Below, piece by piece: positions 15,474 through 62,000 of a stretch of DNA of 64,000 bases. The position numbers were made by a program, and so were the translations under genes. Where the stretch lies: positions 43,338,001-43,402,000 of the forward strand of contig OZ024743.1 of NCBI GenBank assembly GCA_964016885.1, given 5' to 3'. Within the stretch, counting starts at the first letter, position 1. Every line of letters begins with the position of its first letter. This DNA comes from Eledone cirrhosa. Lineage: Eukaryota. The notes under the pieces were generated by a model that worked only from the letters and a program-made list of their open reading frames with translations, was not told where the DNA came from and did not search any database.

Positions 15474-15488
15474 TTACGGTCAAAATCG

Positions 15489-18183: not shown

Positions 18184-18277
18184 ACCCCTTGAGAAGATCG
18201 GCTATTTAAATACCAGGATAAATGTTCATTTAGTCCAGAATTAGCCGTCGAAACGGCTTGAGCTCAGCTGTCGGGGT
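18184..18277 (+). ncRNA. Type I hammerhead ribozyme (family A, inverted arm)
   Basis: Same fold; GUC cleavage predicted after 18272. Confidence 0.85.
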
Positions 18278-18369
18278 CTTACTGGTTCCTATTACCCACT
18301 CTACTACCTCAAGTATTGAGTACTTTGGTGCGTTATGGTCCACCTGGTTCCTTACCACATTTCCTTCGT

Positions 18370-18425
<56 letters not shown>

Positions 18426-26293: not shown

Positions 26294-26680
26294 GAGGCAC
26301 AAGGCCAACAATTTTGGGCGAGAGTAAAGTCGATTAAATCGACTCCAGTACGTTACTGGTACTTTATTCTATCGACCCTATAATGATGAAAGTCAAAGCT
26401 AACCTCAGCGGGATTTGAACTCAGAACCTAAAGAGCCATTACTCTATGCTGAAAAGCATGGTGTATGACGCTCTACCGATTCTGCAAATCCACCGTCCTT
26501 AGTAGAAATAATTGTTACTACTTTTGGCACAAGGCCAGCAATTATTCAGTGTATTACTGGTTCTTTATTTTATCGACGCCGTAAAGATGAAAAGCAAAGT
26601 TAACCTCGGCGGGATTTGAACTCATAACATTAAGGGACGTAGCTATTTGATATAAATATGGCGTCAGACCCTCTACCGAT
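26294..26680 (-). mobile_element. Two tandem SINE copies
   Basis: aggcacaaggcc...ttactggtactttat...ggatttgaactca twice. Confidence 0.8.
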
Positions 26681-26827
26681 ACCTGAAATATCTTTGAACA
26701 AGAAACTGTAAAATGTAAAATAACCTGTTGATACAAATGATAGAATAAAGCTCTGATTGTGATAATATACGGAGGATCATTCTGTTTATTTACCTTATTC
26801 TATCTAAATTATATTATTAAAAAAATC

Positions 26828-27012
26828 TGTGGATTGGCAGTATCAGTAGAGGGTCGGACGCCATGCTTTCCAGCATAGTTACGTCCCTTTACGATCTGAG
26901 TTCAAATCCCGCCGAGGTTGACTTTGCCTTTCATCCTTACGGGGTTGATAAAATAAAGTACCAGTAATGCACTGCGTAATTGCTGGCCTTGTGCCTAAAG
27001 TAGAAACAATTA
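26828..27012 (+). mobile_element. Near full-length SINE
   Basis: ttggcagtatcagtagag (A box), gagttcaaatcc (B box), central domain, agtagaaacaatt end. Confidence 0.85.
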
Positions 27013-27146
27013 TCGAAACAATTTATCCCTTTTATGGGAAACGAAAGCATCATGAATATTTTAGCGCGTATTGAATAATTCCTACAATTTAGTCTATGAT
27101 TGAGCATATTAAGTCACAAACACACCATAATATATATATGTACATA

Positions 27147-29943: not shown

Positions 29944-29944
29944 T

Positions 29945-32369
29945 ATTTCTTTATTAGCCACAGGGGCACAAAAGAAGGGGACAAATACAAAGGGGGAAGT
30001 TTACATACAATAAAAACGTGTAAAATGTTATCACAGATGGAATTTAAAAGTTAGTCGATTTTCCCCAATAGAGGGAGACAGTTTATATGGGTAACACAGA
30101 CCCCCGAAAAAAATGTGCAACCCTCATCTCCAGGAGTACGAAGAGCTTGTACTCCTTTCCTCTCCTCCTCCTTTTCCTCAACCTACAGGCTGATATAGAG
30201 AGAAGGCCCATTCACTCGGGCCATTCTCGCCACTTTCACCCACCTTTCATAAAACTTGCTGGGGTACAGCACCTCTCTCTCCATCCTGATTCTTCTTCCA
30301 AAGTGGTATTTGAAAAAAAGAATCAGTTGTTGGCCGGAGAGAAAGGTGTCTGACCTCAGCCCTTTCAACCTTGTCCACCATACAACCTCTTTCGCCATAG
30401 CTATCACACAAAGGAAAACCGCCTCTCCTTCGTTTTTGAAGGAGGGTGGCGGTTTGATCATGACAATGGACTCGGTGGTCAACTGGATTGGTCCCACCCG
30501 CGACAATAGTCGTTCCACATAGCCCCACAGGTCAGTGACGCCCGGGCAGTGTATGAATGCGTGCGCGACGGTTTCTTCGTCTCGCACGCACCTCGGACAG
30601 ATCTTTTTTGCAGGGTCCCTGCCCGGGCGCCCATGTCTGTAGAGCTTGTCTCGAGCTGGTAGAGCTCCTCGGTAGCACTGCCAGGCCAGGGACTTTTGGA
30701 AGTTGTCCATCGGTCCCGGGCGGAAGGTCCTACCGAACAGACTGGCCAGTTCATCTTCCTCCACGCCTAGAGTTTCACCGAGCGCGTCGTCGCACTTGCT
30801 GCGGACCAACCCTCTATAGAATGACGAAGTGGAGTCTCCACTGATCGCCGGGTCCGCCTGCCAGAGGGCTGTGAGCGCCTGAGCACATTCGATGTGCCAG
30901 TCGCCCATTTTCCTCGGTCTCTGCTTGACCCAGGACTGCAGCTCGGTCAGCGAGACGAGTCGTGGGAAGGCTCGCCTCACGAACGGGGCCCACACCGGTT
31001 GTCCGGTGAGGAATACGTAGAGATGCCGCAGCCTGAGCGCGTGTTTGCGCATCGTCAACCACGGCATCCCCAGCCCTCCGTTAGAAGGGTGTTGGCAGCA
31101 GATGGATCTTCTTACCAAAGGAGCCCGCCTCTTCCAAAGGAATCGGAAGAGGGCGCGCTCCATTTTGGCGAGCGTTTTGGCTGGACAAGGCACGACGGTC
31201 AAGCGGTAGTAGATGGCGGACGCTATAAAAGTGTTCGCCACCTCCGCTCGACCTTTCAAGGATAGTTTGCACTCGGCCCACTTCTGGGTGAGTGCAAACA
31301 CCTTGGCCGTCACTTCGTTCCAGTTCTTCTCCACCTGGAGGTCCGGACCAAACCAGACCCCGAGCAGCTTTACCGGTCCTTCCGTCCAGCGTCCGACGAC
31401 GCCATCGGAAGGCATCGGTCTGCCTCTCCACGATCCGAGTTGCAAACCGATGGACTTGTCCCGGTTCAGCTTCGCTCCTGTGAGACTTTCGTATTCCTTT
31501 AGTAAGGTGCCGACTTCCTCGATTTGCGAGGCGCTCGACACCATTACTGTCACGTCGTCGGCGTAGGCCGACGCCGCTTTCCGCAGTCCCGGTTCCAGAG
31601 GGATGCCCTGCAATAGCTCCAGCTTCCGCAGTAGTGGCTCGAGAGTCAGTACGTACAGAAGGGAGGAGAGAGGGCATCCCTGTCGAATGGATCGCGTAAT
31701 ATGGAACGGCTCCGAGAGGTAACCGTTCACCTTGACCCTTGAGCAGATGTTGCTGTTGTGCATTGCAGCAATCCAGCCCCTGAACACGGGTCCGAAGCCT
31801 GCCGCCTCGAGCACCGCATCCAGGTAACGATGGTCAACCCTATCGAAAGCCTTAGACTGATCCAAGTTGATCAGGGCCCCACCGAAGCCGGGTTTACACC
31901 CTACCCTCTCTATGATGTATCGCATGAGGTGGAGGTTGTCGTGTATGGACCTGGTCGGGATCGCGCATGTCTGCGCTTCTCCCACCAGGTTCTCGACGAC
32001 AAGCGCCAGCCTCTTTGCCAACACCTTGGCCAAAATCTGTAACTCTGTGTTTAGCAGAGTTATGGGCCGGAAGTTGCCTATGTCATCCCCCTTATTCTCG
32101 TCCTTCCTGATTAGTGTGACCACGCCCCCGGTTACAGAATTGGGAATTCTCCCGTTCTGTTGCCAGTTGCAGTAGACCGCTTCCAGGAGACCGGAGAATA
32201 AGTCCGGCATTGCTACGTAAAATTCGTAGGGTAGACCGTCGAGACCTGGAGATTTGCGTTTGCCGCATTGGCTCAGCGCGTCCCCTATCTCAGTGGCTGA
32301 AATCGGCTTTTCGCAGAACTTCGCCTCGCTGTCCGAGAGTCGCGGTAGGCCGTCGAGGTATGGACCGAA
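29945..32369 (-). mobile_element. 5'-truncated Tx1 (L1-group) LINE inserted in (GATA)n
   Basis: Uninterrupted ORF2, short 3' UTR ending aataaagaaat; (tagа)n-type repeats at 29869-29941 and 32370-32407. Confidence 0.9.
30183..32369 (-). CDS. Tx1-like ORF2 fragment: RT + C-terminal CCHC knuckle (5'-truncated, open)
   Basis: KSPGLDGLPYEFY, NFRPITLLN, LDQSKAFDRVDH, RQGCPLS, YADD, CPRC..EETVAHAFIHC; frame stays open upstream of the ORF-track start to the junction. Confidence 0.88.
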   Translation of the reverse strand, partial: FGPYLDGLPRLSDSEAKFCEKPISATEIGDALSQCGKRKSPGLDGLPYEFYVAMPDLFSGLLEAVYCNWQQNGRIPNSVTGGVVTLIRKDENKGDDIGNFRPITLLNTELQILAKVLAKRLALVVENLVGEAQTCAIPTRSIHDNLHLMRYIIERVGCKPGFGGALINLDQSKAFDRVDHRYLDAVLEAAGFGPVFRGWIAAMHNSNICSRVKVNGYLSEPFHITRSIRQGCPLSSLLYVLTLEPLLRKLELLQGIPLEPGLRKAASAYADDVTVMVSSASQIEEVGTLLKEYESLTGAKLNRDKSIGLQLGSWRGRPMPSDGVVGRWTEGPVKLLGVWFGPDLQVEKNWNEVTAKVFALTQKWAECKLSLKGRAEVANTFIASAIYYRLTVVPCPAKTLAKMERALFRFLWKRRAPLVRRSICCQHPSNGGLGMPWLTMRKHALRLRHLYVFLTGQPVWAPFVRRAFPRLVSLTELQSWVKQRPRKMGDWHIECAQALTALWQADPAISGDSTSSFYRGLVRSKCDDALGETLGVEEDELASLFGRTFRPGPMDNFQKSLAWQCYRGALPARDKLYRHGRPGRDPAKKICPRCVRDEETVAHAFIHCPGVTDLWGYVERLLSRVGPIQLTTESIVMIKPPPSFKNEGEAVFLCVIAMAKEVVWWTRLKGLRSDTFLSGQQLILFFKYHFGRRIRMEREVLYPSKFYERWVKVARMARVNGPSLYISL

Positions 32370-32801: not shown

Positions 32802-32838
32802 CATATATATATATATATTTATTAAAATAACAGATTAA

Positions 32839-32889
32839 AGTTTAAGCAAAGAATCGCTGCTTTCACCCTTAACGGGATCTTCTGAAACT
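32839..32889 (-). ncRNA. Type I hammerhead-like ribozyme (family B), CAGAAGA core
   Basis: AGTTT-CAGAAGA-tCCC gttaa GGGt-GAA-AGCAG cgattct TTGCT-T-AAACT. Confidence 0.65.
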
Positions 32890-33809
32890 AACAAAGTCAA
32901 TCTGTAAACGCAGAACTGGATATTTCAAAAAACGTTGCAACCGGAGGAAGACAGGAAGACGATACTTTGGTTCGTGGTAACGTTCGCTGGCAAAGAACGG
33001 GAAAAAACGAATAATACGTCATTAATAGGAGCGGTGAAAACAATTACGCGCAAAGATAGAACCACGTTTATGGTATAAAAGAGGTCGTAGACTAATGTTC
33101 TCTTAGGTGGTGCATAGAGACGTTCTCTGGCAATGAATGATAAAAAAGAAAATAATAAGTCATATGTGGAGCGTGGAGAACAATAGCACGCAAAGACAAA
33201 ACCACGTAAATGGTATAGCAGAAGTCGTAGACTAAAATTCTAACTAGGAGACCAAATGAATCTCCGCTACAGAGTTAAGAACAAAGTAAATAAATACAAT
33301 ACAGAAGTAATAGAAACAAATAAATACATACACGCAAACAGATACGTACATACACAAGCATACGCAAAACCTTACCATAGGTATACAAAACCACGCACAT
33401 ATAAATATGTGTGTGTGTATGCTTGTGTACAAATAAATAAATAATTATATAAACGTATATAAGTAAATAAATACGTATATAACAAGCGCACACGCATACC
33501 TACATATAAATACACGAATGTTCGGAGACGTAAGTCAACTAAAACAAGAGGTACACATATACACACAGCCACCATACGTACGAACCTGCATAGTCACGCA
33601 GACGCAAAACACCCGTATACACATAGCCAAACCCTAAATACCAGGATATGTAAAAATTATACGCCATGACAGTCAAATATACGTACGAGAAGGTACCTTC
33701 ACAAAACATACGGGTAATATATACTTACCTATGCAAATAAGTAAAGGAATAAACAAAACATATACTTAGCTCCCACATCAAGACGTAAAATATCCACGTA
33801 TCGATCGTG

Positions 33810-35798
33810 TTATCCGTTAGGGTATAACGTGGGGCTGTAATACAGGAAAGTTTTGTGCAATTTATGTTTACAAGCCGAAATTGCCTCAGATTTTTTGTTT
33901 AAGATGTGGTCTTTGGCGTAGAGTATTTCCAGGGCCTCAGCGGCGCAGAGGTCACATGGTCTTTTATTTCCGCTATACGATCTAGCCCTAGCTATGATCT
34001 CCCAGTGTAACTTATATTGGGTGTGGTTGTCTTTTAGACTCCAGATATAAGCTGAAAGTGACGTCACATTCCTTCTTAGAGGGTAACGAAAAGAATGGGT
34101 ATGCATGTAAAGACGCTGCTTGAAACTATTGGCGGTTAACCCTATGTAGTCCCTACGGGACGTGGGTGTTACAACCTTACAATTGTAGACAATGTTACTA
34201 GAGAGGCATTTCCCGGATAGGCAATCAGCCTGATTCCTACAATTACAGTTAGTACTAACTACAGGGTTGCACGTGTTCCTACGGCTAGGTAGTTTAGCTA
34301 AATTTGAAGCTGTGATGTTATGTGCAAGGTTAGGAGTCGTAGAGTAAGGAATTGTAATAGTATTTCTATTAAAAATGTTACTATATTTATGTGTAGGGGG
34401 AAAATGCTTCGAAATAAGGGAAAGAAAGATCTTAGCTAATGGTGTGGCCACCTCCATATTATATGGTGGGTTAAACCAACAAATGCGACGGGATCTATTT
34501 CTTATAGGTCTATTTTCGTACTCTGTATATGCTACCTTATCGACAAATCCACTTCGAGCAACAGCTTCATTGTAATAAGTGGAATGGTTGTTGAAAATGC
34601 GCTCGTTGGTGGAAAGACGGGAAAGCCTCAACGAAACGTTTCTTACCAGGTTCCTGGTTATGCTGGCAGGATGGTTGGAATGCTTACTTATGTAATTAAG
34701 CGTATCATTCGGCTTTCTATACGGGTAATACAACCCATTCAATAAATTGAGGGTAACGTCGAGGTAATTAACGACCGAGAGATTGGCCTCAACCTGTATA
34801 GAGAGGTTGAAGCCTTTAAAGAAGGCTGTGAGTTCTTTTCTGAACCTGTCGCAAGCACGAGGTCCGCACTTAGTCATGGTCAAATGACCATCGTCACGGT
34901 ACAAACCACTGCCCGCGTTGGGGAATTCGTCCTTGATAGAGAAAAGAAGGAAAAGCCCAATAAGATCAGTAACCTCCGCAGAGTCACTGGCGCCCATACT
35001 CTCGTCGAATGGGGTACTATTGGATTTTTTAATCCAAATAGAGTCGTCGAAATTAATCACCGACTTTCGGGCATTAAGGATGACATCAACTTCAAAATCC
35101 TTAACCACTGTGAGTGTTTTAGCGAAATTGATAGCTCTAAGGAGAAGTGGTAAAGTGATGGAGGAGTAGTAATTGTTGATGTCGAATTGGATAAAACGGC
35201 AATGTTCCTTGTTACATATGCCGTTGAACCAATCAATCACCGCGAAAGAATTGTTCCACAGTGCGAGAGGGGCCAAACTTCTAATTTCAGGTATAATTCT
35301 ATCAAGAATCGTTTTACTAAGTCTACCTAAATCGGACTTCGTAGGGTTAATAAGCTGAATAGAGGGGTTGTTCGGAAAATTGGATTTGTGATCCTTCAGG
35401 GTAAAGTGGGGAGAGATAGGGTCCAGAGGTTCGGTCCGGTCCAGGATGTTGAGATCAGATGTGATTTTAAACCCAGCATCGTTGATTTCATTGATGACGC
35501 ACCGATTAGTTTTACGGTAATCCTTAGTTACAGCATTATGTAGTAGTTGATGGTAAGTACTGCGCTCCACTTGATATAGGTTGCCAGTTTTGTCGGAATG
35601 GACGTGCACGGCGTTAGAATCCTTAATAGAACGAATTCTATTCTTCAAGTCTTGCTGGAAGGAATTGCTCCTATTCCGAAATTTGATATTCCGAATGAGT
35701 TCCAAGACATAATTTTCGAAGGGTAGCAATGCTGGGTTCCACGGAGGGTTATTATAGGTTTTAAATCCAAATTTATCCTGTTTGTTGTCTGCTTTTCG
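33810..35798 (-). pseudogene. Family B RT-GIY-YIG ORF, duplicated 5'-truncated copy
   Basis: Same translation as 36244-38265 from RKADNKQ on; upstream part of the ORF-track call is 3' UTR sequence. Confidence 0.85.
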
Positions 35799-36243
35799 CA
35801 AAACCTTACCATAGGTATACAAAACCACGCACATATAAATATGTGTGTGTGTATGCTTGTGTACAAATAAATAAATAATTATATAAACGTATATAAGTAA
35901 ATAAATACGTATATAACAAGCGCACACGCATACCTACATATAAATACACGAATGTTCGGAGACGTAAGTCAACTAAAACAAGAGGTACACATATACACAC
36001 AGCCACCATACGTACGAACCTGCATAGTCACGCAGACGCAAAACACCCGTATACACATAGCCAAACCCTAAATACCAGGATATGTAAAAATTATACGCCA
36101 TGACAGTCAAATATACGTACGAGAAGGTACCTTCACAAAACATACGGGTAATATATACTTACCTATGCAAATAAGTAAAGGAATAAACAAAACATATACT
36201 TAGCTCCCACATCAAGACGTAAAATATCCACGTATCGATCGTG

Positions 36244-38268
36244 TTATCCGTTAGGGTATAACGTGGGGCTGTAATACAGGAAAGTTTTGTGCAATTTATG
36301 TTTACAAGCCGAAATTGCCTCAGATTTTTTGTTTAAGATGTGGTCTTTGGCGTAGAGTATTTCCAGGGCCTCAGCGGCGCAGAGGTCACATGGTCTTTTA
36401 TTTCCGCTATACGATCTAGCCCTAGCTATGATCTCCCAGTGTAACTTATATTGGGTGTGGTTGTCTTTTAGACTCCAGATATAAGCTGAAAGTGACGTCA
36501 CATTCCTTCTTAGAGGGTAACGAAAAGAATGGGTATGCATGTAAAGACGCTGCTTGAAACTATTGGCGGTTAACCCTATGTAGTCCCTACGGGACGTGGG
36601 TGTTACAACCTTACAATTGTAGACAATGTTACTAGAGAGGCATTTCCCGGATAGGCAATCAGCCTGATTCCTACAATTACAGTTAGTACTAACTACAGGG
36701 TTGCACGTGTTCCTACGGCTAGGTAGTTTAGCTAAATTTGAAGCTGTGATGTTATGTGCAAGGTTAGGAGTCGTAGAGTAAGGAATTGTAATAGTATTTC
36801 TATTAAAAATGTTACTATATTTATGTGTAGGGGGAAAATGCTTCGAAATAAGGGAAAGAAAGATCTTAGCTAATGGTGTGGCCACCTCCATATTATATGG
36901 TGGGTTAAACCAACAAATGCGACGGGATCTATTTCTTATAGGTCTATTTTCGTACTCTGTATATGCTACCTTATCGACAAATCCACTTCGAGCAACAGCT
37001 TCATTGTAATAAGTGGAATGGTTGTTGAAAATGCGCTCGTTGGTGGAAAGACGGGAAAGCCTCAACGAAACGTTTCTTACCAGGTTCCTGGTTATGCTGG
37101 CAGGATGGTTGGAATGCTTACTTATGTAATTAAGCGTATCATTCGGCTTTCTATACGGGTAATACAACCCATTCAATAAATTGAGGGTAACGTCGAGGTA
37201 ATTAACGACCGAGAGATTGGCCTCAACCTGTATAGAGAGGTTGAAGCCTTTAAAGAAGGCTGTGAGTTCTTTTCTGAACCTGTCGCAAGCACGAGGTCCG
37301 CACTTAGTCATGGTCAAATGACCATCGTCACGGTACAAACCACTGCCCGCGTTGGGGAATTCGTCCTTGATAGAGAAAAGAAGGAAAAGCCCAATAAGAT
37401 CAGTAACCTCCGCAGAGTCACTGGCGCCCATACTCTCGTCGAATGGGGTACTATTGGATTTTTTAATCCAAATAGAGTCGTCGAAATTAATCACCGACTT
37501 TCGGGCATTAAGGATGACATCAACTTCAAAATCCTTAACCACTGTGAGTGTTTTAGCGAAATTGATAGCTCTAAGGAGAAGTGGTAAAGTGATGGAGGAG
37601 TAGTAATTGTTGATGTCGAATTGGATAAAACGGCAATGTTCCTTGTTACATATGCCGTTGAACCAATCAATCACCGCGAAAGAATTGTTCCACAGTGCGA
37701 GAGGGGCCAAACTTCTAATTTCAGGTATAATTCTATCAAGAATCGTTTTACTAAGTCTACCTAAATCGGACTTCGTAGGGTTAATAAGCTGAATAGAGGG
37801 GTTGTTCGGAAAATTGGATTTGTGATCCTTCAGGGTAAAGTGGGGAGAGATAGGGTCCAGAGGTTCGGTCCGGTCCAGGATGTTGAGATCAGATGTGATT
37901 TTAAACCCAGCATCGTTGATTTCATTGATGACGCACCGATTAGTTTTACGGTAATCCTTAGTTACAGCATTATGTAGTAGTTGATGGTAAGTACTGCGCT
38001 CCACTTGATATAGGTTGCCAGTTTTGTCGGAATGGACGTGCACGGCGTTAGAATCCTTAATAGAACGAATTCTATTCTTCAAGTCTTGCTGGAAGGAATT
38101 GCTCCTATTCCGAAATTTGATATTCCGAATGAGTTCCAAGACATAATTTTCGAAGGGTAGCAATGCTGGGTTCCACGGAGGGTTATTATAGGTTTTAAAT
38201 CCAAATTTATCCTGTTTGTTGTCTGCTTTTCGCGGATTATCGAAATAAAAGGCACGCCAACGCAACCT
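36244..38268 (-). CDS. Family B PLE RT + GIY-YIG ORF (open, lacks roughly the first 35 aa)
   Basis: [59 protein letters not shown]; collinear with family A. Confidence 0.88.
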
Positions 38269-38309
38269 TCGAGCCCTCTTTGGATTTTAGTCTTGAATTT
38301 TATTATTAT

Positions 38310-38401
<92 letters not shown>

Positions 38402-38529: not shown

Positions 38530-38997
<468 letters not shown>

Positions 38998-42331: not shown

Positions 42332-42520
42332 TAAAATAAAAGATTAAAGTTTAAGCGAAGAATCGCTGCTTCCACCCTTAACGGGATCTTCTGAAACATG
42401 ATTTTGGTATTCTGCGATAAATATTCTGCGATAAATATTTGCTCTACGGTTCTTATATATTTGATATCTATTTATGCTTAATGAGCCCTCTTTGGATTTT
42501 AGTCTTCAAATTTATTATTA
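42325..42520. mobile_element. Family B mini-insertion: HHR arm (minus) plus inverted tail (plus)
   Basis: 42325-42397 matches 32815-32888; 42430-42520 continues the tail in the opposite orientation. Confidence 0.8.
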
Positions 42521-42545
42521 TATATATATATATATACATATATAC

Positions 42546-42756: not shown

Positions 42757-42789
<33 letters not shown>

Positions 42790-42792
<3 letters not shown>

Positions 42793-44630
42793 ACGAAGGA
42801 AATGTGGTAAGGAACCAGGTGGACCATAACGCACCAAAGTACTCAATACTTGAGGTAGTAGAGTGGTAATAGGAACCAGTAAGACCCCGACAGCTGAGCT
42901 CAAGCCGTTTCGACGGCTAATTCTGGAATAAATAGCAGTGGAGAACCGACCAGGAGGTGTAACTGCCCGGATAGATCTATTTGCCCACTCGACAATAGAT
43001 GCAGAGACCGTAATGTGATCTACCAGTGCAACGTGAGGACGGATACCTCCAACAAAGCTTATATAGGACTTACCGCATGTGACTTCAAGACCCGGCTATA
43101 CCAACATAGACATACCTTCCGAAACCCGGCCCGGCGTCACGCCACTACCCGTTCGGGCCACTTATGGGACCTCAAGGACAACAACATCACCTATGATCTC
43201 ACTTGGAGATTACTGTCCAGAGCCAATTCTTACACGGGAGGACGCCGTCCGTGCAATTTATGCTCGGAGGAAACTTTACAAATGCTGTTTTCGACGGACC
43301 AACTCCTAAACAAGAAAGATGAACTGGTTACTGCATGTAAACATAGATTGCGTAGGACTTACCTCGCCCTCAAACCCCATAATGACCCGGGGGGGGGGGG
43401 GGGGTAGACTAGGGCTATAACACCCCACTTGCCGATTTTGCAATGGGTAACCCCTGCTTGCCAAGGAAGACGTAAGATCTTCTTTGTATTCTTTTATCAC
43501 TACCTTTATTTCCTTCCCCCCTCTCTCCTTAGTCCTTCTACCCCAGCTCTTCTCCTTTGTCGGCGTCTTTTCTCGCCCACCCGAGGCTGCCCTTTGGCCC
43601 CATGTAGCCTTAGTACCCCCACCACCCCCTCCCCTAGTCTATGATAGATTTGGCGGACTCCGCCCTTTATAGCAGTTGGCTTAGACCCCGGATACTTGCC
43701 CCCTTTTTCCGACCGCTCCCACTATTCTCTGTGCCCTCTATATTACTTAGTGGCACTTATGCCTTATTTTTTCGTTTCAGTATTTCTTGCTTCGCTTTTC
43801 TTCTGGGCGGGGTGGATTCTGAATTTATTTCTCCGTATTCTACCTTTATTTCGTACGAACTTTCATGTAGCTTGTTTTAGATCTTTTAGAGTTAGCATTA
43901 GTATATATTTTTCTCGGGACTCAGAATTATTATCTCGTACAAGTTCACTTTGCTGCACTGGGTCGTTGCTGGCCCGGGATGGAAACCTTTATTGTTTATT
44001 TCGTGGTAGTCTCTTTAGTATTTTGGCCCCTTTTGTTGACCCGTCACCGTATCATTTACGTACTTATACCTCTTAAAAGGGTTCTTGCCTAATTCGTCCC
44101 ACCTAGTTCTTTTACTTATTTCGATATTTCTTTATTTATTTTTTTCTTTACTTCTTTCTTTCTTTCTTTATTTTATTCTAGCCTAACAATAGCCTGAGAC
44201 CTAGGTCGTAGAATTTAATTTACTTTACTTTTTTCTTTACACTTATTTGCTTTTCTTCACTCTCAGTATTTTTTCTTTCCTATATATTTCTACCCCCCAT
44301 TGTTCTACCTACCGTTCCGACTTCCTCCCCCTCCCCATCCCCTGTATCTTCTTTGACCTCATGCCCAGCTGTAGCTGGCACTACCAACGCTTGATTGGGT
44401 CTACTCCACCCCCTCCCCTCTTTCTCCTACTGGCAGGTTTAGCCACCATCTCCCCTAGTAATTTGCAACCACAGAATTACTACTGATTTTTGACAATCAC
44501 TTTGACCATATATGGAATTACCCCTTGAGAAGATCGGCTATTTAAATACCAGGATAAATTTTCATTTAGTCCAGAATTCGCCGTCGAAACGGCTTGAGCT
44601 CAGCTGTCGGGGTCTTACTGGTTCCTATTA
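42790..44630 (+). mobile_element. 5'-truncated family A copy with inverted 5' tail (42790-42927)
   Basis: GIY-YIG fragment, full 3' UTR, HHR 44520-44613, ends ttactggttcctatta. Confidence 0.93.
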
Positions 44631-44631
44631 A

Positions 44632-44711
<80 letters not shown>

Positions 44712-44727
44712 GTGTATATATATATAT

Positions 44728-46904
44728 GTTAAGCTACATTTCGACTTTGTTTCGAATATCTAAATAGATAGGAAAGTCAATTTTGAAAAGTGAAACAAAA
44801 GTTTCATTGTCTTTTTAATTGTTTTAAAGAAATAATTTTATGTAAAGACCAAACATTTATTTGTATAGTTTCGAATTATTACTATGTCAAGCTTGCGACC
44901 GTGGCAAATAAATAAGTATAGCGGCTGCGTCAAGTCGGAAAGTAGTGGTGGTGTCGGGGACTGAAAGCAGCACACAACAGCGACCACAGCGCAACAAAAG
45001 CAAGATGGCTTTGGACTTGTTTCACATAATCTTTCTTTTCCATTATTTTCAACACTATTAAACCCATGTAGCGGAAGTAGAGAGCCACAGTCAAGCTTTT
45101 ATTCAAACGGACAAACATCTTACATGTATAGTTGGAGACTTACACGGGATACCATTAGAAATAAAACCAGGTGAAAGTTATTCAGAATTAACCTTTCATG
45201 AAGAAAATATTTTACCAAATGGGGTTCGACTTCATCCAGCAATGGCAGATTTTGGTGAACACCTTATGGGTATGACTCTTCTACAACAGGTCTCTCTGTA
45301 CATAATGCTGATACAAAAACAGTTTACACCTGTTGTACATATCGGGCAGTACAGCACATTTTCACTGTTTACTTTTTCAAGATAAAATGGTTCCTCCTGG
45401 AGGGAACACAACATTCGATGTTGTATTTCTAGCACGTCAGGTTGGCCCAGTTGAAAATACATTATATATTCACACAACCAAGGGTCCTTTAAATATCAGG
45501 TGTTTGGAGTTTGAATTCCAAATCCTTATAGACTTCGACCTTACTTGGGTGCCAAATTCCCCTTGAACAGTAGCTTTTCTTCTTTAATTGACATGCATAA
45601 TCCACACAGTATAACTCTTCAGCTTGTGGAAATGTTTTCAAGTGCAGGGGATCTGCACTTAGAACTCCCAACAGGAGACAGAAAGCCTATAACAACATTG
45701 TGGGAAATTCCACCGTATGAAACAAAACCTGTATGCGGGAAGAGTAGAAACCAACCATACAGCCTTTATACGTATCAAAACAAATCATGAGCATATTCAA
45801 GGTGTATTAATACTTCCTGCCGAAGTGAAGGTTACCTCAGTTCCTGGTATATATCCTCCAGTAGAGATGATCGATTTTGGTATTCTGCGAAATTTAGATG
45901 AACCTCAAACTGTACAGTTGTATCTGGTATACACGGGCTCGAGACCTGTTCATGTTACAGGCGTTTCTTTATCACCTCCAAATGATGCTATCTCTGTAGA
46001 ATTCCGACCTATGAAACTACAGCCAGATGTATTACGTCCTGTAGCAGTAGCCCAGATTACATTTAGAGCCACTAAAGCTTTAAATCCTAGACAGTAGTTT
46101 GGGAAAATTGTTGTAAAACCCAAACACAATTTGAATAAATATTCTATCCCATACATGTAAATGTACTTCATGGGTCATTAGTCTACAATGCAAACAACAC
46201 TCACTTTTACAGTGGCTCATTTATGAGTAAACATACCAGATCGCTGGCCTTTACTAATAATTTTAACTTGTCTATAGTCATATATAATGTTAGCCTTCCA
46301 CAAGGTGTACACAAATATTTTTCAATCAGAAATTTCTCTAAGCCTGTGATAATTCGTCCCCAGGAAACTCTAGTACCATTTTTGTTGCATTTCCATCCAA
46401 ACACCACATCACTTCATTTCACCTCTCAAATCATCATTCAGACAAATGCATCTAGCTTCAGTATTCCCATCATCGTATGCAGTGGTCTTCTTAAGATCAT
46501 ACATCATCGACCAGAACAGTCCAAATGTCAACTTGATTTTGGCACAGCAAGTGTTGGCGAACACCGCAGTATAACATTTACTATGCAGAATAATAATCCA
46601 ATAAATATTGTAATATTGTAATCGCAGAGTTTAGTAGCATTATGAACCAGAGCAGTTTACATTTGGCATAGAAAAAGGCAATGGCACAACACTTGCTACA
46701 TTTCACAACATTTCCGATATTGATACAGATCGATTAATATTAAAACGTTACCACATTGCTATGTTCATTGTGAATGTCACTGCTGCTTATATGAAGGCAT
46801 GTTCTCTGGACAAGTCCTTATTGTTACTCAGCTTCAGACCCTATTTATACCAGTATCACTTAGAACTGCAAAAGGAAGTTTAAATGCTATTCCAGAAAAA
46901 CAAA
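44728..46904 (+). pseudogene. TMEM131: Processed pseudogene of transmembrane protein 131 (5' part of mRNA)
   Basis: Intronless 2.2 kb with QAFIQT, VPPGGNTTFDVVFLARQVGPVENTLYIHT, NPYRLRP, NSSFSSLIDMHNPHS, SSAGDLHLELPTG, LWEIPPYETK, IDFGILR, LDFG; many stops and frameshifts. Confidence 0.88.
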
Positions 46905-46951
46905 TATATATATAGAGATTGATAGATATATCGATAGATACATAGATAGAC

Positions 46952-46988
<37 letters not shown>

Positions 46989-47202
46989 TACATATGTATA
47001 TTTATATATATATTGTTAAAATTGGCTTGTCTAACGAACGAATGCGGACGTTTCTTGTATTCGTCTTATTCGGGAAACCTCTGGTAATGAGGTAATTATA
47101 TTGTATTGTTTACTATACATTAAATATTAAGCTATGTAACTTACATAGAGCACTCTTCATTCCTCTGAATTTTTCAACGGAAACTTCAATACTTATATAT
47201 AT

Positions 47203-49243
47203 TTGTCAGCTAATGAGCGGATATTCGATGAACATGCGCCTTATTACAACCAGGCCCTTAAGCGGAGTGGTTTCCGGGAGGAAATATCCTACTGTCCAGC
47301 TCCCATTAGCGGAACCAGCAGGAGACACCGCCGCTCACGCAATGTAACATGGTTCAATCCTCCCCACAACGCAGAGGTGACTACTCCCATCGGGAAACTA
47401 TTCTTTAGGCTCATTGAAAAACACTTCCCATTACAACACCGCTACCACAACATAATTAACAAAAATACCATCAAACTCTCTTACAGCACTACACCAAACT
47501 TCGCACAAAACATCGTCTCCTCTAACAACAAAAAACTCAACCCCGATGGCAGAAATAACCTAAATAGCGGTGGAGAACCGACCAGGAGGTGTAACTGCCC
47601 GGATAGATCTATTTGCCCACTCGACAATAGATGCAGAGACCGTAATGTGATCTACCAGTGCAACGTGAGGACGGATACCTCCAACAAAGCCTATATAGGA
47701 CTTACCGCATGTGACTTCAAGACCCGGCTATACCAACATAGACATACCTTCCGAAACCCGGCCCGGCGTCACGCCACTACACTTTCGGGCCACATATGGG
47801 ACCTCAAGGACAACAACATCACCTATGATCTCACTTGGAGATTACTGTCCAGAGCCAATTCTTACACGGGAGGACGCCGTCCGTGCAATCTATGCTCGGA
47901 GGAAACTTTACAAATGCTGTTTTCGACGGACCAACTCCTAAACAAGAAAGATGAACTGGTTACTGCATGTAAACATAGATTGCGTAGGACTTACCTCGCC
48001 CTCAAACCCCATAATGACCCGGGGGGGTAGACTAGGGCTATAACACCCCAGTTGCCGATTTTGCAATGGGTAACCCCTGCTTGCCAAGGAAGACGTAAGA
48101 TCTTCTTTGTATTCTTTTATCACTTCCTTTATTTCCTTCCCCCCCTCTCTCCTTTGTCCTTCTACCCCAGCTCTTCTCCTTTGTCGGCGTCTTTTCTCGC
48201 CCACCCGAGGCTGCTCTTTGGCCCCATGTAGCCTTAGTACCCCCACCCCCCCCCTCCCCTAGTCTATGATAGATTTGGCGGACTCCGCCCTTTATAGCAG
48301 TTGGCTTAGACCCCGGATACTTGCCCCCTTTTTCCGACCGCTCCCACTATTCTCTGTGCCCTCTATATTTCTTAGTGGCACTTATGCCTTATTTTTTCGT
48401 TTCAGTATTTCTTGCTTCGCTTTTCTTCTGGGCGGGGTGGATTCTGAATGTATTTCTCCGTATTCTACCTTTATTTCGTACGAACTTTCATGTAGCTTGT
48501 TTTAGATCTTTTAGAGTTAGCATTAGTATATATTTTTCTCGGGACTCAGAATTATTATCTCGTACAAGTTCACTTTGCTGCACTGGGTCGTTGCTGGCCC
48601 GGGATGGAAACCTTTATTGTTTATTTCGTGGTAGTCTCTTTAGTATTTTGGCCCCTTTTGTTGACCCGTCACCGTATCATTTACGTACTTATACCTCTTA
48701 AAAGGGTCCTTGCCTAATTCGTCCCACCTAGTTCTTTTACTTATTTCGTTATTTCTTTATTTATTTATTTCTTTACTTCTTTCTTTCTTTATTTTATTCT
48801 AGCCTAACAATAGCCTGAGACCTAGGTCGTAGAATTTAATTTACTTTACTTTTTTCTTTACACTTATTTGCTTTTCTTCACTTCAGTATTTTTTCTTTCC
48901 TATATATTTCTACCCCCCATTGTTCTACCTACCGTTCCGACTTCCTCCCCCTCCCCCTCCCCTGTATCTTCTTTGATTTCATGCCCAGCTGTAGCTGGCA
49001 CTACCAACGCTTGATTGGGTCTACTCCACCCCCTCCCCTCTTTCTCCAACTGGCAGGTTTAGCCACCATCTCCCCTACTAATTTGCAACCACAGAATTAC
49101 TACCGATTTTTGACAATCACTCTGACCATATATGGAATTACCCCTTAAGAAGATCGGCTATTTAAATACCAGGATAGATTTTCATTTAGTCCAGAATTAG
49201 CCGTCGAAACGGCTTGAGCTCAGCTGTCGGGGTCTTACTGGTT

Positions 49244-49248
<5 letters not shown>
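47203..49248 (+). mobile_element. 5'-truncated family A copy
   Basis: ORF fragment 47203-48030, 3' UTR, HHR 49140-49233 with G5>A (TTAAGAA), ends at +20 into (TA)n. Confidence 0.93.
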
Positions 49249-51607: not shown

Positions 51608-51888
51608 AGGTAGAGGGTCAGACACGCTTTCCAGCGTAGTTACGTCCCTTTACGATCTGAGTTCAAATCCCGCTGAGGTTAACTTTGCCTCTCATCCGTA
51701 CGGGGTCGATAAAATAAAGTACCATTAATGTACTGGATAATTGCTGGCCTTGTGCCAAAAGTAGAAACAATTATTTATCTGGGAAAGGCGGATTGGCATA
51801 TCGGTAGAGCGTCAGACACTATGCTTTCGGCAAAGAGTTATGGCCCTTTGCGTTCTGAGTGCAAATCCCGCCGAATTTAGCTTTGCTA
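51608..51888 (+). mobile_element. Two SINE copies (second partial)
   Basis: gagttcaaatccc and central domain; second head ggcggattggcatatcggtagag. Confidence 0.8.
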
Positions 51889-52019
51889 AAGATACTTATT
51901 TAAATTAAAACCTTCCAATGTAATTTTTATTTATCACCTTTTTGTTACAAATACCATATAAATAAGGAAGCATAATTCTCCTCCCACCCCACTTCATTTT
52001 AAAAAAAATAAATTAATTA

Positions 52020-52213
52020 CTGTATATACTTCAATATAAGCCGACCCCACTATTTTATGTCTGAGGAATGAGCAAAAATCCAAACCATATTTATGTTAAA
52101 TTTGAAATTGGTAACAATCATCAAAATATTGACCCCGAATATATGCCAACCGCTTTCTACCATCTATTTTTTTTTTGTTACATATTCCTCAGCTTATATT
52201 CAAGTATATACAG
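52020..52213. mobile_element. Tc1/mariner-type MITE
   Basis: 25-bp TIRs ctgtatatacttcaatataagccga / tcagcttatattcaagtatatacag (2 mismatches), TA on both sides. Confidence 0.8.
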
Positions 52214-52929
52214 TAATTAGAATAAAGTGTATTTTATTAGCAACTCAGTTATAAAAAGTTTATGAAATGGTATATAGCTACAAAAATTATTTCAGTGACA
52301 TAAAACACAGGAGAAAATAAAGAAAAAAACATTCTTGTATTTTTAAATGTAGTGACAGAAGGAAAAGATATAGAAGTCTTATTAAAAAAGAATAGTAATA
52401 ACAGCAGTTAGGTAAGTTACTATATAGAATCTCATTTTCAATCTATGGAGAGAGCCCCTTAGAAAATATCACATTTGATAGAAAAGACTTTGATCAATGT
52501 AGAAGGGTGAAAAGAACATATTTGAATAATTATACACTTATTTACACACACACGTGAACATATACATACATAAACGTATGCATAATAGCTTTAAAAACAA
52601 AAAAGGAACAAAAATGATGGTGATGACTTCTGAGAAGGCAGAAAGTGAAAACTTGAAAAGAGATATAGTAGATAGAATGTACAGTAGTAGATTATTGATA
52701 TTTGGCCTGTCTTCTACAGGAGAGGAGGAAACTATGATCAACTATAATAATAGTGAATGTGTGTATATTTATTTATATATTTGTCTGTCACTTACTGAAA
52801 GAGAGATGACTGAGGAAAGAAGAGGTGGTGACAAGCTATAGATAACAGCAACCAGTGTTCTAAGATTCTCTACACTTGTGTGTGTATATGTAGTGAATTG
52901 GCTACACACATTGGCTATTATTATTGCCG

Positions 52930-53222
52930 AGGGCGGTGAATTGGCAGTATCAGTAGAGTGTCGGACGCCATGCTTTCCAGCATAGTTACGTCCCTTTACG
53001 ATCTGAGTTCAAATCCCGCCGAGGTTGACTTTGCCTTTCATCCTTACGTGGTCGATAAAATAAAGTACCAGTAATGCACTGGGTAATTGCTGGCCTTGTG
53101 CCTAAAGTAGAGACAATTATTGCCGAGGTTAACTTTGCCTTTCATCCTTACGGGGTCGATAAAATAAAGTACCAGTAATGTACTGAGTAATTGCTGGCCT
53201 TGTGCCAAAAGTAGAAACCATT
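52930..53222 (+). mobile_element. Full-length SINE plus tandem 3' half
   Basis: A box, B box and central domain, followed by a repeat of gccgaggtt...agtagaaac. Confidence 0.85.
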
Positions 53223-53854
53223 TTTGTGTTGGTCTTTGTGTGTTTACATCACCCATAAAATACTAAATTACTATAAATATAAAATACTACAATTAGCTGT
53301 CATTTTTGATGGCACAGGGCCAACTAGTACTATAAGTGCCATGTATGTCTGAGGGAAATACTACTCCACCTCCCCTCTCTCTAACTAACTAAAGCATAAC
53401 GTACAAACAAATGAAAAGAATACACATCCATATCAGTGTTACAGATTGTAAAGCTAAAGGTAGCAGTTTCTTTCAACAAATGTGTATTGATGTTGACAGC
53501 TTTGCACTTAGAATTCCCACCTTTTTTATGAAAACTCGGTTATGAAAATCCTGTCTCGCTCCACCCAACTCTATTTAACTAACTAAAATATAATCCTAAC
53601 TTTAGCCTGTGTCATTTAATATGTAGAAATATATATATAAACTGAGTGTAATTATTGTTTAAGGTTTATTTGGCTGTATAGATATGTTGCTATAACTCTA
53701 ATGCACCTTTATGTTCTGTTTCAAGACGGTACTTCTTCTGATGACATTACGTTTGGAGGTGTAGGTGGGCACTATCAGAACAGTTCTGTAATATTTAATT
53801 TACCATATTGCATTTTGTTCACTCCTACTTTATGCCCACACATTATTATTTAAT

Positions 53855-54012
53855 TGTTACGGTCCTTTCCATCCTGAGTTCAAATTCCGCCGAGGTTAAC
53901 TTTGCCTTTCATCCGTACGGGGTCGATAAAATAAAGTACCAGTAATGCAGGATAAAATAAAGTATCAGTAATACACTGAGATAATTGCTGGCCTTGCGCC
54001 AAAAGTAGGAAC
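53855..54012 (+). mobile_element. SINE 3' part
   Basis: gagttcaaattccgccgaggttaactttgcctttcatcc. Confidence 0.8.
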
Positions 54013-54479
54013 AGCTATTTATCTGGGGAAACCTATGGCTGAATCAGCTACTTCCTTTTTCTTTTTTTTTTTGACAAAAAATCTACGCTTGATACATCTG
54101 CTTACCATCTTCCCTCTGTTTGTCATTGGATTCTGGCAGTTGATACTTAGTGAGCTGCTTGTTTTATATTCTTGTATAGACATCTCTTCAAAGTATTGTG
54201 GCGATGGTGAAGCAGCGACATATACAAACATAAAAAGTTGGAGTTATGCAGTTGCTAATCTACAGACAAGCATCTTAAGGCTTTTCTAACGTCGTTGCGA
54301 GTTTGCGGATTAGGAACTAGCTTGGGCAGAGTTTATTGTGACTGAGAGAAAACTGCTGACACAAATCTTGGGAGAGGTCTAGAAAAGGTGACCCAATCAT
54401 TGTTTCTGTGTTTGTTCCATCATCATTTGGTCAACAAACTTTGGCTGACGGCTGTACATATCGGCTAGAAAGAAAAATG

Positions 54480-59083: not shown

Positions 59084-62000
59084 TTTCTGAATTTGTGTAG
59101 CAAGATTCTTTATCTGAAAACGTGTGTTGAAACCGATATTGTTATACTTTGGGAGGGTCATGTTGCCAATAAGAAACACACGCACGAGTTGTTTCACTTC
59201 AATTTATTATAAATTAAATTTATAAATTTAAGAATTTATAAATTTCCGGTTGGATCGTTGGTTCCACAACCAGACGATTGTTCATATATTGTCAAAGTCC
59301 TTTCGTCATAGATTCTCTGACCTCTTCAGTGAAGGGGGATTCTTTTCTTTGTTTTTGTGCCTCTTCTTTGTTCTGTCCTACGCCATCTTGTTTTTGTGTG
59401 TGTTGCGTGCTTAGTTTGCGCATGTGTTACATCCGGGTGTCTGTGTGTGTTTATATTTGTTTATTTATTTGTTTATTTACATGTTACTGGTTGGTTGTTT
59501 TTTTTATGCGCGTGTGTGTTTTCATTTTGTCCTTAATTGTAAGTTGTGATGTTGCTGTTCCATTCATGTTTTCTATTTAATTTTGGTTGAAGTTGATTTA
59601 TGTTTATTGCTCTGTGATTTGCATCTTTTCTGTGTGTAGATTCTATTTTTATTTCTATGTTCTCTAATTTACCCGTATATTCTATTTTAGCATGTTGGTG
59701 GAGTACAGATGATTCTTTACTATCTTAGAGCTCTCGCCAGTGTTCATTTATCCGTTCCCTATAATACGAGCTGTCTGATCTATGTACATTATATTCTTAT
59801 CTCTACATTGTTCTTCAATACATCATATGCTATATACTACATTTCTAGTTTTACAGTTAATATGGGGGCTGAATTTATAGGTTATACATTTCTTATCTAT
59901 ACAGGGAGGTCTATGAAAAGGGTATATATTGCTAATAAGTGTTTTTATGAAGGGATCTGGTCTTTCTACTATCTTAATATTGAGTTTATGTGTATCTAGG
60001 GCCCTTCTAAACCCTCTAGGGGTTGTATCGATGAACATTACACTCTGATATGTATTACTATCATACCATGAGTTTATTCTATTAACCTTATTCCTAGTTC
60101 TTTCTATTATATTCCAAAATGTGCTCCTATACAAGGGGCAGCTCCCATTTGTATCATTATTTACCATTTTTTCCCATTTGGTTCTGGATGCTCTATATAC
60201 TCTGATTTTATCTCTCTGATTGTAACTAGAGAACTGCATACGGTGGATGAAGTGTTGTATGTGTCTCTCTAGTTCTTTGGGGTTGCACATGCGGGACACC
60301 TTTCTCATCACCCGTACCAAATCCGCAATCAGTATGTTGATTTTGGTATTGTCCGAAACAGCTGAGTTTCGGTGGATCAGATATTTGGAAGTCATGGGTT
60401 TGGCATAATGGGAATGGAGGATTTGTTTTTTTGTTATTAATGGTATCTAACCAGAGCTCTGTGTCTAGTACAGGTAATCGATGGTTGGGGTGTTTGCTTG
60501 GGTAGTCTATAGTAACTCTAATACTCTGGTGGATGGAGTTAGCTATTTGCTGGATGCTTTCCATTGTGTTTTTCTCTAATTCCTGACTGTTCTCTAGTGG
60601 AGGTGTCTTTACTACAATGTTTATATCATCAATATAGCGGGAGTACATTATCAGGGTTAAGAGGTTGCTGTCTTCTAATTGTTCTTTAAGTTTAAGTTTA
60701 AGTTAATTGTCCCACCATACCATGAATAGGTTAACTATGTCACCTGCAATACTAACACCAATGGCTGCTCCCTTCTCTTGGGCATATGATTATCCATTAA
60801 ATTTGAACATATGTTCCTTAAGGGTTAATTTTATACTAAAGAAAATGATTGCACATGCGGTGGGGGCCAGTATAAAAGTAACCCTTAAGGAACATATGTT
60901 CAAATTTAATGGAAAAACATATACCCAAGAGGAGGGGGCAGCCATTGGTGTTAGCATTGCAGGTGACATAGTTAACCTATTCATGGTATGGTGGGACAAT
61001 AGACTTAAACTTCAAACTTAAAGAACAATTAGAAGACAGCAACCTCTTAACCCTGATAATGTACTCCCGCTACGTTGATGATATAAACATCGTAGTAAAG
61101 ACACCCACACTAGAGAACAGTCAGGAATTAGAGAAATACACCATGGAAAGCATCCAGCAAATAGCTTACTCCTTCCACCAGAGTATTAGAGTTACTATAG
61201 ACTACTCAAGTAACACCCCAACCATCGATTACCTGTACTAGATACCATTAATAACAAAAAACAAATCCTCCATTCCCATTATGCCAAACCAATGACTTCC
61301 AAATATCTGATCCACCGAAATTCAGCTGTTTCGGACCATACCTAAATCAACATACTGATTGCAGATTTGGTACGGGTGATGACAAACGTTTCCTGCTTGT
61401 GCAACCCCAAAGAACTAGAGAGACACATACAACATTTGATCCACCGTATGTAGTTCTCTGGTTACAATCAGAGAGATAAAATCAGAGTATATAGAGGAGC
61501 CAGAACCAAATGGGAAAAAAATGGTAAATAATGATACAAATGGGACCTGCCCCTTGTACAGGAGCAAATTTTGGAATAGAATAGAAATAACTAGGAATAA
61601 GGTTAATAGAATAAACTCATGGTATGATAGCAATAAATACCAGAGTGTAATGTTCATCGATACAACCCCTAGAGGTGAATTAGCTTACACATTTAGAAGG
61701 GCCCTAGATAAACATAAACTCATTATTAGCAATAAATACCCTTTTCATAGACCTCCCTGTATAGATAAGAAATGTATAATCTGTAAATTAAGCCCCCATA
61801 TTAACTGTAAAACTAGAAATGTAGTATATAGCATATGATGTACTGAAGGACAATGTAGAGATAAGAATATAGTGTACATAGGTGGGACAGCTCGTAGTAT
61901 AGGGGAACGGATAAATGAATACTGGCGAGAGCTTCAAGATAGTAAAGAATCATCTGTACTCCACCAACATGCTAAAATAGAACATAAGGGTATATTAGAG

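What the first reader, a model, noticed from the sequence alone, without database searches (positions are those of the whole stretch)
44728..46904. TMEM131 retrocopy with PLE-like rather than LINE-like hallmarks
Seen: the copy is intronless, retains the apparent 5' UTR and N-terminal coding region, stops mid-CDS at ...gaaaaacaaatat, has no poly(A), and is bounded by (TA)n on both sides among PLEs. Known: LINE-made processed pseudogenes usually keep the 3' end and poly(A) and lose the 5' end, and TMEM131 is a long multi-exon gene. Inference: a host mRNA internally primed at an AUAU microhomology by TA-targeting PLE machinery, i.e. PLE-mediated retrogene formation in trans.
Basis: partly seen in the sequence, partly recalled or inferred. 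Interest (0 to 1): 0.72.

Follow-up and report, generated by a model that had tools for sequence, protein, structure and literature searches.

The report
Tailless dead TMEM131 gene copy
This is a broken, intron-free copy of the first third of an octopus-like animal's TMEM131 message, pasted without a poly(A) tail into a TA-rich repeat; the copy is real, but which mobile element made it is not settled.

Summary
The copy is real: 44741-46901 matches the 5' UTR and codons 1-666 of about 1,870 of octopod TMEM131. Parent-type DNA contigs carry introns that it lacks (857 nt and about 1.5 kb shown directly). It is dead: start codon lost, 3 stops, 8 frameshifts, 4.0% from the spliced parent, neutral-level amino-acid decay. 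No coding remainder lies in the window. The claimed AUAU priming at the break is wrong: the parent continues differently. But parent bases +7 to +21 reappear 14/15 inside the right-hand TA/GATA array (p about 0.003-0.014), which favours internal priming by RNA-target pairing. The neighbouring PLEs are (TA)n-targeting Hydra-clade elements, but they are about half as diverged as the copy. All 10 Hydra 3' ends stop at a fixed TAT; the copy's end does not, and it has no pLTR sequence. An L1-Tx1-like LINE in the same window is also tailless in a microsatellite, and tailless mRNA copies are known L1 and break-repair products. Verdict: a tailless processed pseudogene, with the enzyme unassigned (PLE about 0.3). 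It is a lead for a genome-wide survey, not evidence of PLE retrogene formation.

The parts
44633..44727 (.). Left (TA)n array. It is also the 3' target of the Hydra-A copy at 42929-44632
   Evidence: TRF period 2, 47.5 copies; junction table
44728..44740 (+). 13 bases at the 5' junction, origin not shown (parental or junction-added)
   Evidence: parent contig X9 record 25 aligns only from 44741; no match elsewhere in the window
44741..44917 (+). Copy of the TMEM131 5' UTR (177 nt before the former ATG)
   Evidence: X9 record 25 aligns 44741-45095; X5 record 17 starts 92 letters before 44866; X1 record 2 parent-type 44788-44984
44918..46901 (+). Spliced TMEM131 coding copy, aa 1-666. ATG read as ATA, 3 in-frame stops, 8 frameshifting indels
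   Evidence: tblastn; frameshift-aware alignment; introns and differences against the parent; Pfam
46902..46918 (+). 17-base non-parental linker (AAA, then TA repeats, then GAGA) in place of 6 parental bases
   Evidence: window sequence against the parent continuation (table 7)
46919..46932 (+). 14/15 match to parent bases +7 to +21 behind the break: likely priming homology, or the true 3' end
   Evidence: score 12; reached by 7 of 2101 overlapping 30-mers (1 locus), 0 of 71 non-overlapping, 0 of 390 microsatellite-edge windows
46933..47013 (.). Rest of the right compound (GATA)n/(TA)n array
   Evidence: TRF 46904-47013, 79% matches
42929..44632 (+). Neighbour, not part of the copy: 5'-truncated Hydra-clade PLE, with an inverted 5' piece at 42787-42933
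   Evidence: 32 mismatches in 1704 against the intact unit; motifs
47202..49248 (+). Neighbour, not part of the copy: 5'-truncated Hydra-clade PLE in a separate TA run, 190 bases past the right array
   Evidence: 31 mismatches in 2056 against the intact unit; junctions

Best explanation
A dead-on-arrival, tailless processed pseudogene. Shown: a spliced TMEM131 mRNA was reverse-transcribed and has decayed at a neutral rate since. Inferred: reverse transcription began about 2.2 kb into the 6-7 kb message, not at the poly(A). A free 3' end in a pre-existing TA/GATA microsatellite paired with the one GATAGAGTATAT-like stretch just behind codon 666. The start was slippery, leaving a 17-base TA-rich linker, and synthesis then ran to the mRNA's 5' end, which was joined to the left half of the array. 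Hydra PLEs later inserted into the same and a neighbouring TA run. The enzyme is not identified. I put 0.35 on a LINE RT (L1-Tx1, RTE or similar) or cDNA capture at a break in the array, and 0.30 on a PLE (listed separately as a rival).
For: Introns lost. Parent continues in frame past 46901, with no poly(A) in the copy. 14/15 match of the parent's next bases inside the right array, against nulls of 7 of 2101 and 0 of 390. No coding remainder in 64 kb. 59 of 628 conserved residues changed (9.4%), close to the roughly 9% that my arithmetic gives for neutral change at 4.0% DNA divergence. Target-RNA complementarity of 2-18 nt and 3'-truncated mRNA copies are described for L1 (PMC5322556 passages). 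Poly(A)-less spliced inserts with microhomology are described at breaks (PMC4516963 passages). Recently active L1-Tx1, RTE, CR1 and Dong-R4 insertions outnumber PLE insertions 2533 to 336 in O. vulgaris (PMC13282606 Table 1; another species).
Against: No TSD can be read in a TA array and no empty site was seen, so insertion into a pre-existing array is inferred. The homology is separated from the body by 17 non-parental bases, which a clean priming event would not give. The match was found after the fact, rests on a 30-letter view of the parent, and both sequences are low-complexity. The Tx1-like element here sits in (TCTA)n on its sense strand, the opposite polarity to this copy's (GATA)n. 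The tailless L1 class is described for therian L1 and is defined with TSDs.
Confidence: 0.65

Rival explanations
1. Sub-case of the best explanation, and the first reader's claim: a (TA)n-targeting PLE protein (Hydra or Naiad clade) nicked the array and started reverse transcription inside a spliced host mRNA that has no pLTR.
For: Two Hydra-clade families lie in the window (motifs RWR, DKT, CxCx5C, CxxC..E, N..CxH; against section 11 of PMC8557442). Hydra-1_Obim and 5 cephalopod Naiads are listed with a (TA)n preference (supplement rows). All 10 Hydra-A 3' ends are internal, tailless and at TA. A purified PLE starts RT inside its RNA (PMC11167929). TA arrays are only 3.7-4.4% of the window. 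More diverged Hydra-A relatives (about 85-87% identity) show the clade is not only recent here. TAT occurs at parent +2 to +4 and TATAT at +16 to +20.
Against: 10 of 10 Hydra-A ends stop at TAT at one of two fixed pLTR sites, and 8 of 10 go straight into (AT)n; the copy's end does neither. The copy's first 200 and last 300 bases resemble neither Hydra family more than shuffles do (0 of 8 comparisons above the shuffle maximum). The adjacent Hydra copies are about half as diverged. The described PLE trans-mobilised gene is framed by pLTRs and keeps its introns (PMC3846280 passages). The purified PLE needed the first 172 nt of its own ORF in the RNA. TAT occurs 64 times in 2161 nt, so one near the break means little.
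Confidence: 0.3
2. An ordinary, longer LINE-made retrocopy lost its 3' part later. The mRNA's own GATAGAGTATAT stretch seeded or received a microsatellite, and a deletion or rearrangement between TA arrays removed the rest.
For: The parental fragment inside the array (46919-46932) can be read as a remnant of a copy that once ran further. The window has 31 TA-type arrays and many inversions and tandems. Only 17 kb downstream could be searched, and no genome was held.
Against: It needs a rare 6-7 kb full-length copy plus a later deletion. No coding remainder in the window at E up to 10 (best E 3.9). The 190 bases past the array match nothing parental that I could test.
Confidence: 0.25
3. The template was a short transcript, cleaved and polyadenylated inside the coding region. 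It was retroposed normally by a LINE, with AAA left of the tail.
For: TTTAAA lies at 46879, 17 bases before the break. The parent is U-rich right behind the break. The break follows an A5C run, one of 2 in the copy. The Tx1-like element here also ends in AAA then TATAT.
Against: TTTAAA is a weak variant (recalled), and 17 such hexamers occur in the copy. It leaves the 14/15 match to downstream parent bases as chance. Both spliced contigs (X4, X5) run on past the site.
Confidence: 0.08
4. Assembly artefact, or DNA duplication of a single large exon.
For: X1 may be the sample the window was built from, so it is not fully independent (caveat).
Against: The parent has introns in this region. Copy-type contigs with 0 differences cross the splice points at depth 7.7-11.9, like parent-type contigs at 7.3-11.2. 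The copy has private stops and frameshifts.
Confidence: 0.02

Closest known systems
Tailless retropseudogenes (Noll et al. 2015, PMC5322556; passages seen)
   Same: 3'-truncated, no oligo(A), 5' end kept, insertion site complementary to the RNA at the end point, mRNAs among the templates.
   Different: Described for therian L1 and selected by TSDs. Here the host is an octopod, no TSD is readable, the target is a TA/GATA array, and the homology is offset by a 17-base linker.
Hydra-clade PLE insertions (Craig et al. 2021, PMC8557442; section 11, passages and supplement rows seen)
   Same: (TA)n on both sides, no poly(A), 3' end inside the template RNA; present next door.
   Different: Hydra ends here are at fixed pLTR sites ending TAT, with clean (AT)n and often a 5' inversion. 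The copy has no PLE sequence, no inversion and a ragged GATA/TA end.
PLE-mobilised host genes in Adineta vaga (Arkhipova et al. 2013, PMC3846280; passages seen)
   Same: A host gene copied to a new site in a PLE-bearing genome.
   Different: That gene keeps its introns and is framed by pLTRs and an 8-bp TSD. This copy is spliced and has no pLTR of its own.
RT-product-mediated break repair (Ono et al. 2015, PMC4516963; passages seen)
   Same: Partial spliced mRNA, no poly(A), microhomology at a junction.
   Different: Those inserts are short internal pieces (about 0.3-0.8 kb) at induced breaks in mouse zygotes. This one is 2.2 kb and reaches the 5' UTR.
LTR-mediated retrocopies (Tan et al. 2016, PMC5131818; passages seen)
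   Same: Partial, often 3'-truncated, tailless, with microsimilarity.
   Different: These are flanked by pieces of an LTR element. Both flanks here are microsatellite.

Membership tests
Processed pseudogene | Introns of the parent precisely absent | tested here: met
   857-letter and about 1.5-kb introns in parent-type contigs, plus two further joints; spliced parent contigs are colinear with the copy
Processed pseudogene | Disabled and drifting | tested here: met
   ATG lost, 3 stops, 8 frameshifts, 59 of 628 conserved residues changed
Classical LINE-made retrocopy | mRNA 3' end and poly(A) tail | tested here: not met
   ends at aa 666 of 1877; AAA only
Classical LINE-made retrocopy | Target site duplication | tested here: inconclusive
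   both flanks are TA repeats, so a TSD cannot be told
Tailless retropseudogene | 3' truncation without oligo(A), 5' end kept | tested here: met
Tailless retropseudogene | Target complementary to the RNA at the end point | tested here: inconclusive
   14/15 match, but offset by a 17-base linker; empty site not seen
Tailless retropseudogene | Made by L1-clade machinery | not testable with these tools
   an RVT_1 + zf-RVT element is in the window (L1-Tx1 label is my reading of its motifs), but nothing links it to the copy
PLE-mobilised sequence | pLTR or other PLE cis sequence on the mobilised unit | tested here: not met
   no likeness of either end to Hydra A or B above shuffles; flanking PLEs are separate, less diverged insertions
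PLE-mobilised sequence | Insertion in (TA)n (Hydra, Naiad) | tested here: met
   TA arrays abut both ends; background 3.7-4.4%; right array is compound
PLE-mobilised sequence | Local Hydra 3' signature: TAT then (AT)n | tested here: not met
   10 of 10 Hydra-A ends have TAT; the copy has a pure run of 0 at both candidate ends
PLE-mobilised sequence | Intron retention, as in the described trans case | tested here: not met
   introns lost; PMC3846280
Hydra-clade PLE (neighbours A and B) | RWK-like and DKT motifs, CxCx5C linker, C-terminal GIY-YIG with CxxC and CxH around E and N | tested here: met
   all found in both ORFs; no tree was built
LTR-mediated retrocopy | Flanked by a discontinuous LTR element | tested here: not met
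   flanks are microsatellite, Hydra PLE and 190 unassigned bases

The most novel reading that the evidence does not exclude
In cephalopods, (TA)n-targeting PLE proteins reverse-transcribe spliced host mRNAs that carry no pLTR. They start internally, with slippery, telomerase-like re-copying of a short GATA/TA-like stretch, and so make a class of 5'-intact, tailless retrocopies in microsatellites. This would be a third route to retrocopies beside L1 and LTR elements. I saw no such report in the listings.
Probability: 0.3. Interest if true: 0.72.

Novelty: new member of a known kind. Interest (0 to 1): 0.36.

Why it matters
As it stands it is one dead pseudogene. It matters as a pointer. Which elements make retrocopies outside mammals is largely open (PMC5131818 abstract). 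If PLEs can take spliced, pLTR-free mRNAs, genomes rich in Hydra or Naiad elements would gain N-terminal gene fragments that keep their 5' UTR, and tail-and-TSD screens would miss them. The local data give a sharp test, because Hydra ends here follow a very regular TAT rule against which all retrocopy ends can be scored.

Tried and rejected
No whole genome was held, so no survey of retrocopies, no search for the 3' remainder beyond the window and no empty site. Earlier-findings look-ups returned nothing. Rfam at gathering score: 0 matches in the window. Pfam gave 0 families for the three Hydra ORF stretches scanned, so the clade call rests on motifs. Run X9 (another organism) showed only parent-type pieces among those listed; contigs show presence, not absence, so this is not used to date the copy. 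Folding the copy's last 100 bases (z 0.22) and the Hydra-A pLTR (z 0.86) gave nothing; the parent's sequence across the break could not be folded, which leaves the question of a single-stranded start site open. The 190 bases at 47014-47201 matched nothing convincingly: alignment to two short look-alikes shared only the last 20 or so bases, and the score against Hydra-B equalled the shuffle maximum, 23. A PLE-mRNA chimera made in one event with the right-hand PLE was rejected: unassigned DNA and a separate TA run intervene, and the divergences differ. The 39125 end was cut about two bases off and is left out of the count of 10.

Full report
What is there. The stretch 44918-46901 encodes, in broken frames, residues 1-666 of TMEM131. 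Pfam finds TMEM131_like_N, Ig_TMEM131_2 and Ig_TMEM131L_3 in 3 of the 9 pieces scanned. The longest open piece hits 16 proteins among 154 candidates, nearly all with mollusc names, led by proteins labelled Octopus sinensis (89%, 1877 aa) and Argonauta hians (87%, 1858 aa). At the 24 aligned sites where those two differ, the copy sides with each 11 times and with neither twice, so the host is an octopod about equally far from both (inference). tblastn of three full-length proteins finds nothing else in the 64 kb at E 1e-3. Residues 661 onward give a best E of 3.9. No whole genome was held.

Intron loss and the parent. I laid 4 of the 23 listed runs on 44722-46945 at 80% likeness. All are contigs, the kind of X1 and X4 is not on record, and the output showed 40 of 138 difference rows, 21 of 106 loose ends and 30 of 568 records. 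X4 record 9 (6174 letters) and X5 record 17 (7022) align as single pieces over 44894-46901 and 44866-46901, with 81 and 111 other letters, restore the ATG and the frames, and run on past 46901. They behave as the spliced parent mRNA. X1 and X9 hold parent-type pieces with introns: 857 letters between 46324 and 46325, about 1.5 kb at 45838-45840 (X9 record 26), and joints of unknown length at 45386/45387 and 45261-45267. Piece ends at 45095, 45703, 45960, 46044, 46173, 46494 and 46606 suggest more. X1 also holds copy-type contigs with 0 differences that cross several of these points, at depths like the parent's. X9 record 25 aligns from 44741, and X5's record begins 92 letters before 44866, so the 177 bases before the former ATG are very probably 5' UTR. 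The 13 bases 44728-44740 remain unassigned.

It is dead. The start codon reads ATA, there are stops at residues 49, 200 and 399, and there are 8 frameshifting indels. Of 628 residues shared by the two living proteins, 59 (9.4%) are changed. By my arithmetic 4.0% neutral DNA change gives about 9%. 'Retrogene' is the wrong word.

The 3' junction. However, parent bases +7 to +21 match 46919-46932 at 14 of 15 with one gap (score 12). Using the copy as a stand-in for the mRNA, 7 of 2101 overlapping 30-mers (one locus) and 0 of 71 non-overlapping ones reach that score on the same flank. The motif reaches it on 0 of 390 other microsatellite-edge windows (best 9), and on one other locus among 4264 windows of both strands. 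The match was found after the fact and in low-complexity DNA, so I take p as roughly 0.003-0.014, suggestive and not decisive. Six parental bases are replaced by 17 TA-rich ones between the body and this match. That fits priming on a target that paired with the RNA, a slippery start, or later microsatellite growth in a copy that once ran further. The break also follows an A5C run (2 in 2161 nt), and TTTAAA lies 17 bases upstream (17 such hexamers in the copy).

The neighbours. The two main PLE families have RWR, DKT, CxCx5C, CxxC..E and N..CxH, the marks of the Hydra clade in section 11 of PMC8557442. That section says almost all Hydra families insert in (TA)n, and the supplement lists Hydra-1_Obim and five cephalopod Naiads with that preference. 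So TA-targeting PLE machinery does exist in this lineage. Their junctions are very regular: 10 of 10 Hydra-A-type 3' ends stop at TAT at one of two pLTR sites about 80 bases apart, and 8 go straight into (AT)n, with one adding TAAG and one adding G. The TMEM131 end follows neither rule at either candidate end point. Neither end of the copy resembles Hydra A or B above shuffles. The two flanking copies differ from the intact unit by 32 of 1704 and 31 of 2056 substitutions, against 81 of about 2008 for the retrocopy, so they probably arrived later. The left TA array is the target of one of them. TA arrays cover 3.7-4.4% of the window, so a TA site is an enrichment of roughly 25-fold over chance, for a single case picked because it looked this way.

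Are the hallmarks PLE-specific? No. In this window an RVT_1 + zf-RVT element (L1-Tx1-like by my reading) lies in (ATAG)n at both ends and ends AATAAAGAAA then TATATCTATC, with no poly(A). A CR1-like element ends a few bases before (TA)9. Tx1-clade families target microsatellites elsewhere (PMC4494074 passages). L1 makes 3'-truncated tailless copies, mRNAs included, with 2-18 nt of target complementarity (PMC5322556 passages). Breaks capture poly(A)-less spliced cDNA with microhomology (PMC4516963 passages). LTR elements give 3'-truncated tailless copies but leave LTR flanks (PMC5131818 passages), which are absent here. For PLEs, a purified Poseidon starts RT inside its RNA at sites not homologous to the cut DNA, and needs the first 172 nt of its own ORF (PMC11167929, parts 1-2 of 4). 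The described trans-mobilised host gene is framed by pLTRs and keeps its introns (PMC3846280 passages). Retrozymes are argued to be non-autonomous PLE derivatives related to pLTRs (bioRxiv 10.64898/2026.07.22.740005, part 1 of 5). In O. vulgaris, recently active LINE insertions number 2533 (421 L1-Tx1) against 336 PLE (PMC13282606 passages). Against the LINE reading, the Tx1-like element's array has the opposite polarity to this copy's. I saw no report of PLE-made spliced retrocopies, or of octopod retrocopy surveys, in the listings (25 of 93 papers; 20 of 146; 10 of 11). The library lacks most subscription papers, and preprint supplements were closed.

Mechanism and odds. Shown: RNA origin, truncation, no tail, neutral decay, microsatellite flanks. 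Inferred: internal priming on a TA/GATA array that paired with the message just behind codon 666 (0.65 in all, of which LINE or break repair 0.35 and PLE 0.30); later loss of the 3' part (0.25); a prematurely polyadenylated template (0.08); artefact (0.02). The odds are judgement, not computed. One locus without an empty site cannot name the enzyme.

Verdict. A new member of a known kind, a tailless processed pseudogene. The PLE claim is not excluded and would be a new route to retrocopies if a genome-wide census showed the Hydra end rule on host mRNAs. The local evidence for it is adjacency and a TA site, and the local signature test was not met. Interest 0.36.

Noticed in passing
window 10292-18375: Intact-looking Hydra-clade PLE (ORF 11502-13856, minus strand, about 760 aa from the first Met) in a tandem and inverted cluster of 99.6-99.9% identical copies: a candidate active element. 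Its 3' ends use two fixed pLTR sites about 80 bases apart, recalling the two RT start sites of the Anolis PLE.
   Followed up: partly
window 32823-38312: Second Hydra family (minus strand), 5'-truncated, with a 2437-base 100% identical tandem and TA arrays at both ends; short related pieces at 42332-42521 and 6389-6512.
   Followed up: partly
window 29944-32368: 5'-truncated L1-Tx1-like LINE with an open 725-aa RT and zinc-finger frame, inserted in an (ATAG)n array and without poly(A); possibly a GATA-targeting family.
   Followed up: partly
window 9771-9977 and 38531-38882: 207-base unclassified element flanked by TA on both sides, with an inverted partial copy at 38740: PLE-like layout, possibly a third family or a non-autonomous PLE.
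   Followed up: no
window 6712-6750: At the 5' end of a 146-base Hydra-A fragment, an 11-base piece of the element is repeated with a TA run between the two copies: a patchwork junction somewhat like the one at the TMEM131 3' end.
   Followed up: no
window 3061-6002: Decayed CR1-like LINE (RVT_1 pieces; clade label from recalled motifs) ending a few bases before (TA)9.
   Followed up: no
window 6822-8450 and 59823-62000: Decayed C-terminal GIY-YIG PLEs of other clades; the second has a CX4CxxC linker, Neptune-like by motif.
   Followed up: no
window 2320-2505, 6075-6223, 26344-27013, 51609-54030: Dispersed repeat of about 185 bases at 75-97% identity, SINE-like in size.
   Followed up: no
window 47014-47201: 190 unassigned bases between the right array and the next Hydra copy; not TMEM131 coding; the parent's 3' UTR could not be tested.
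   Followed up: partly
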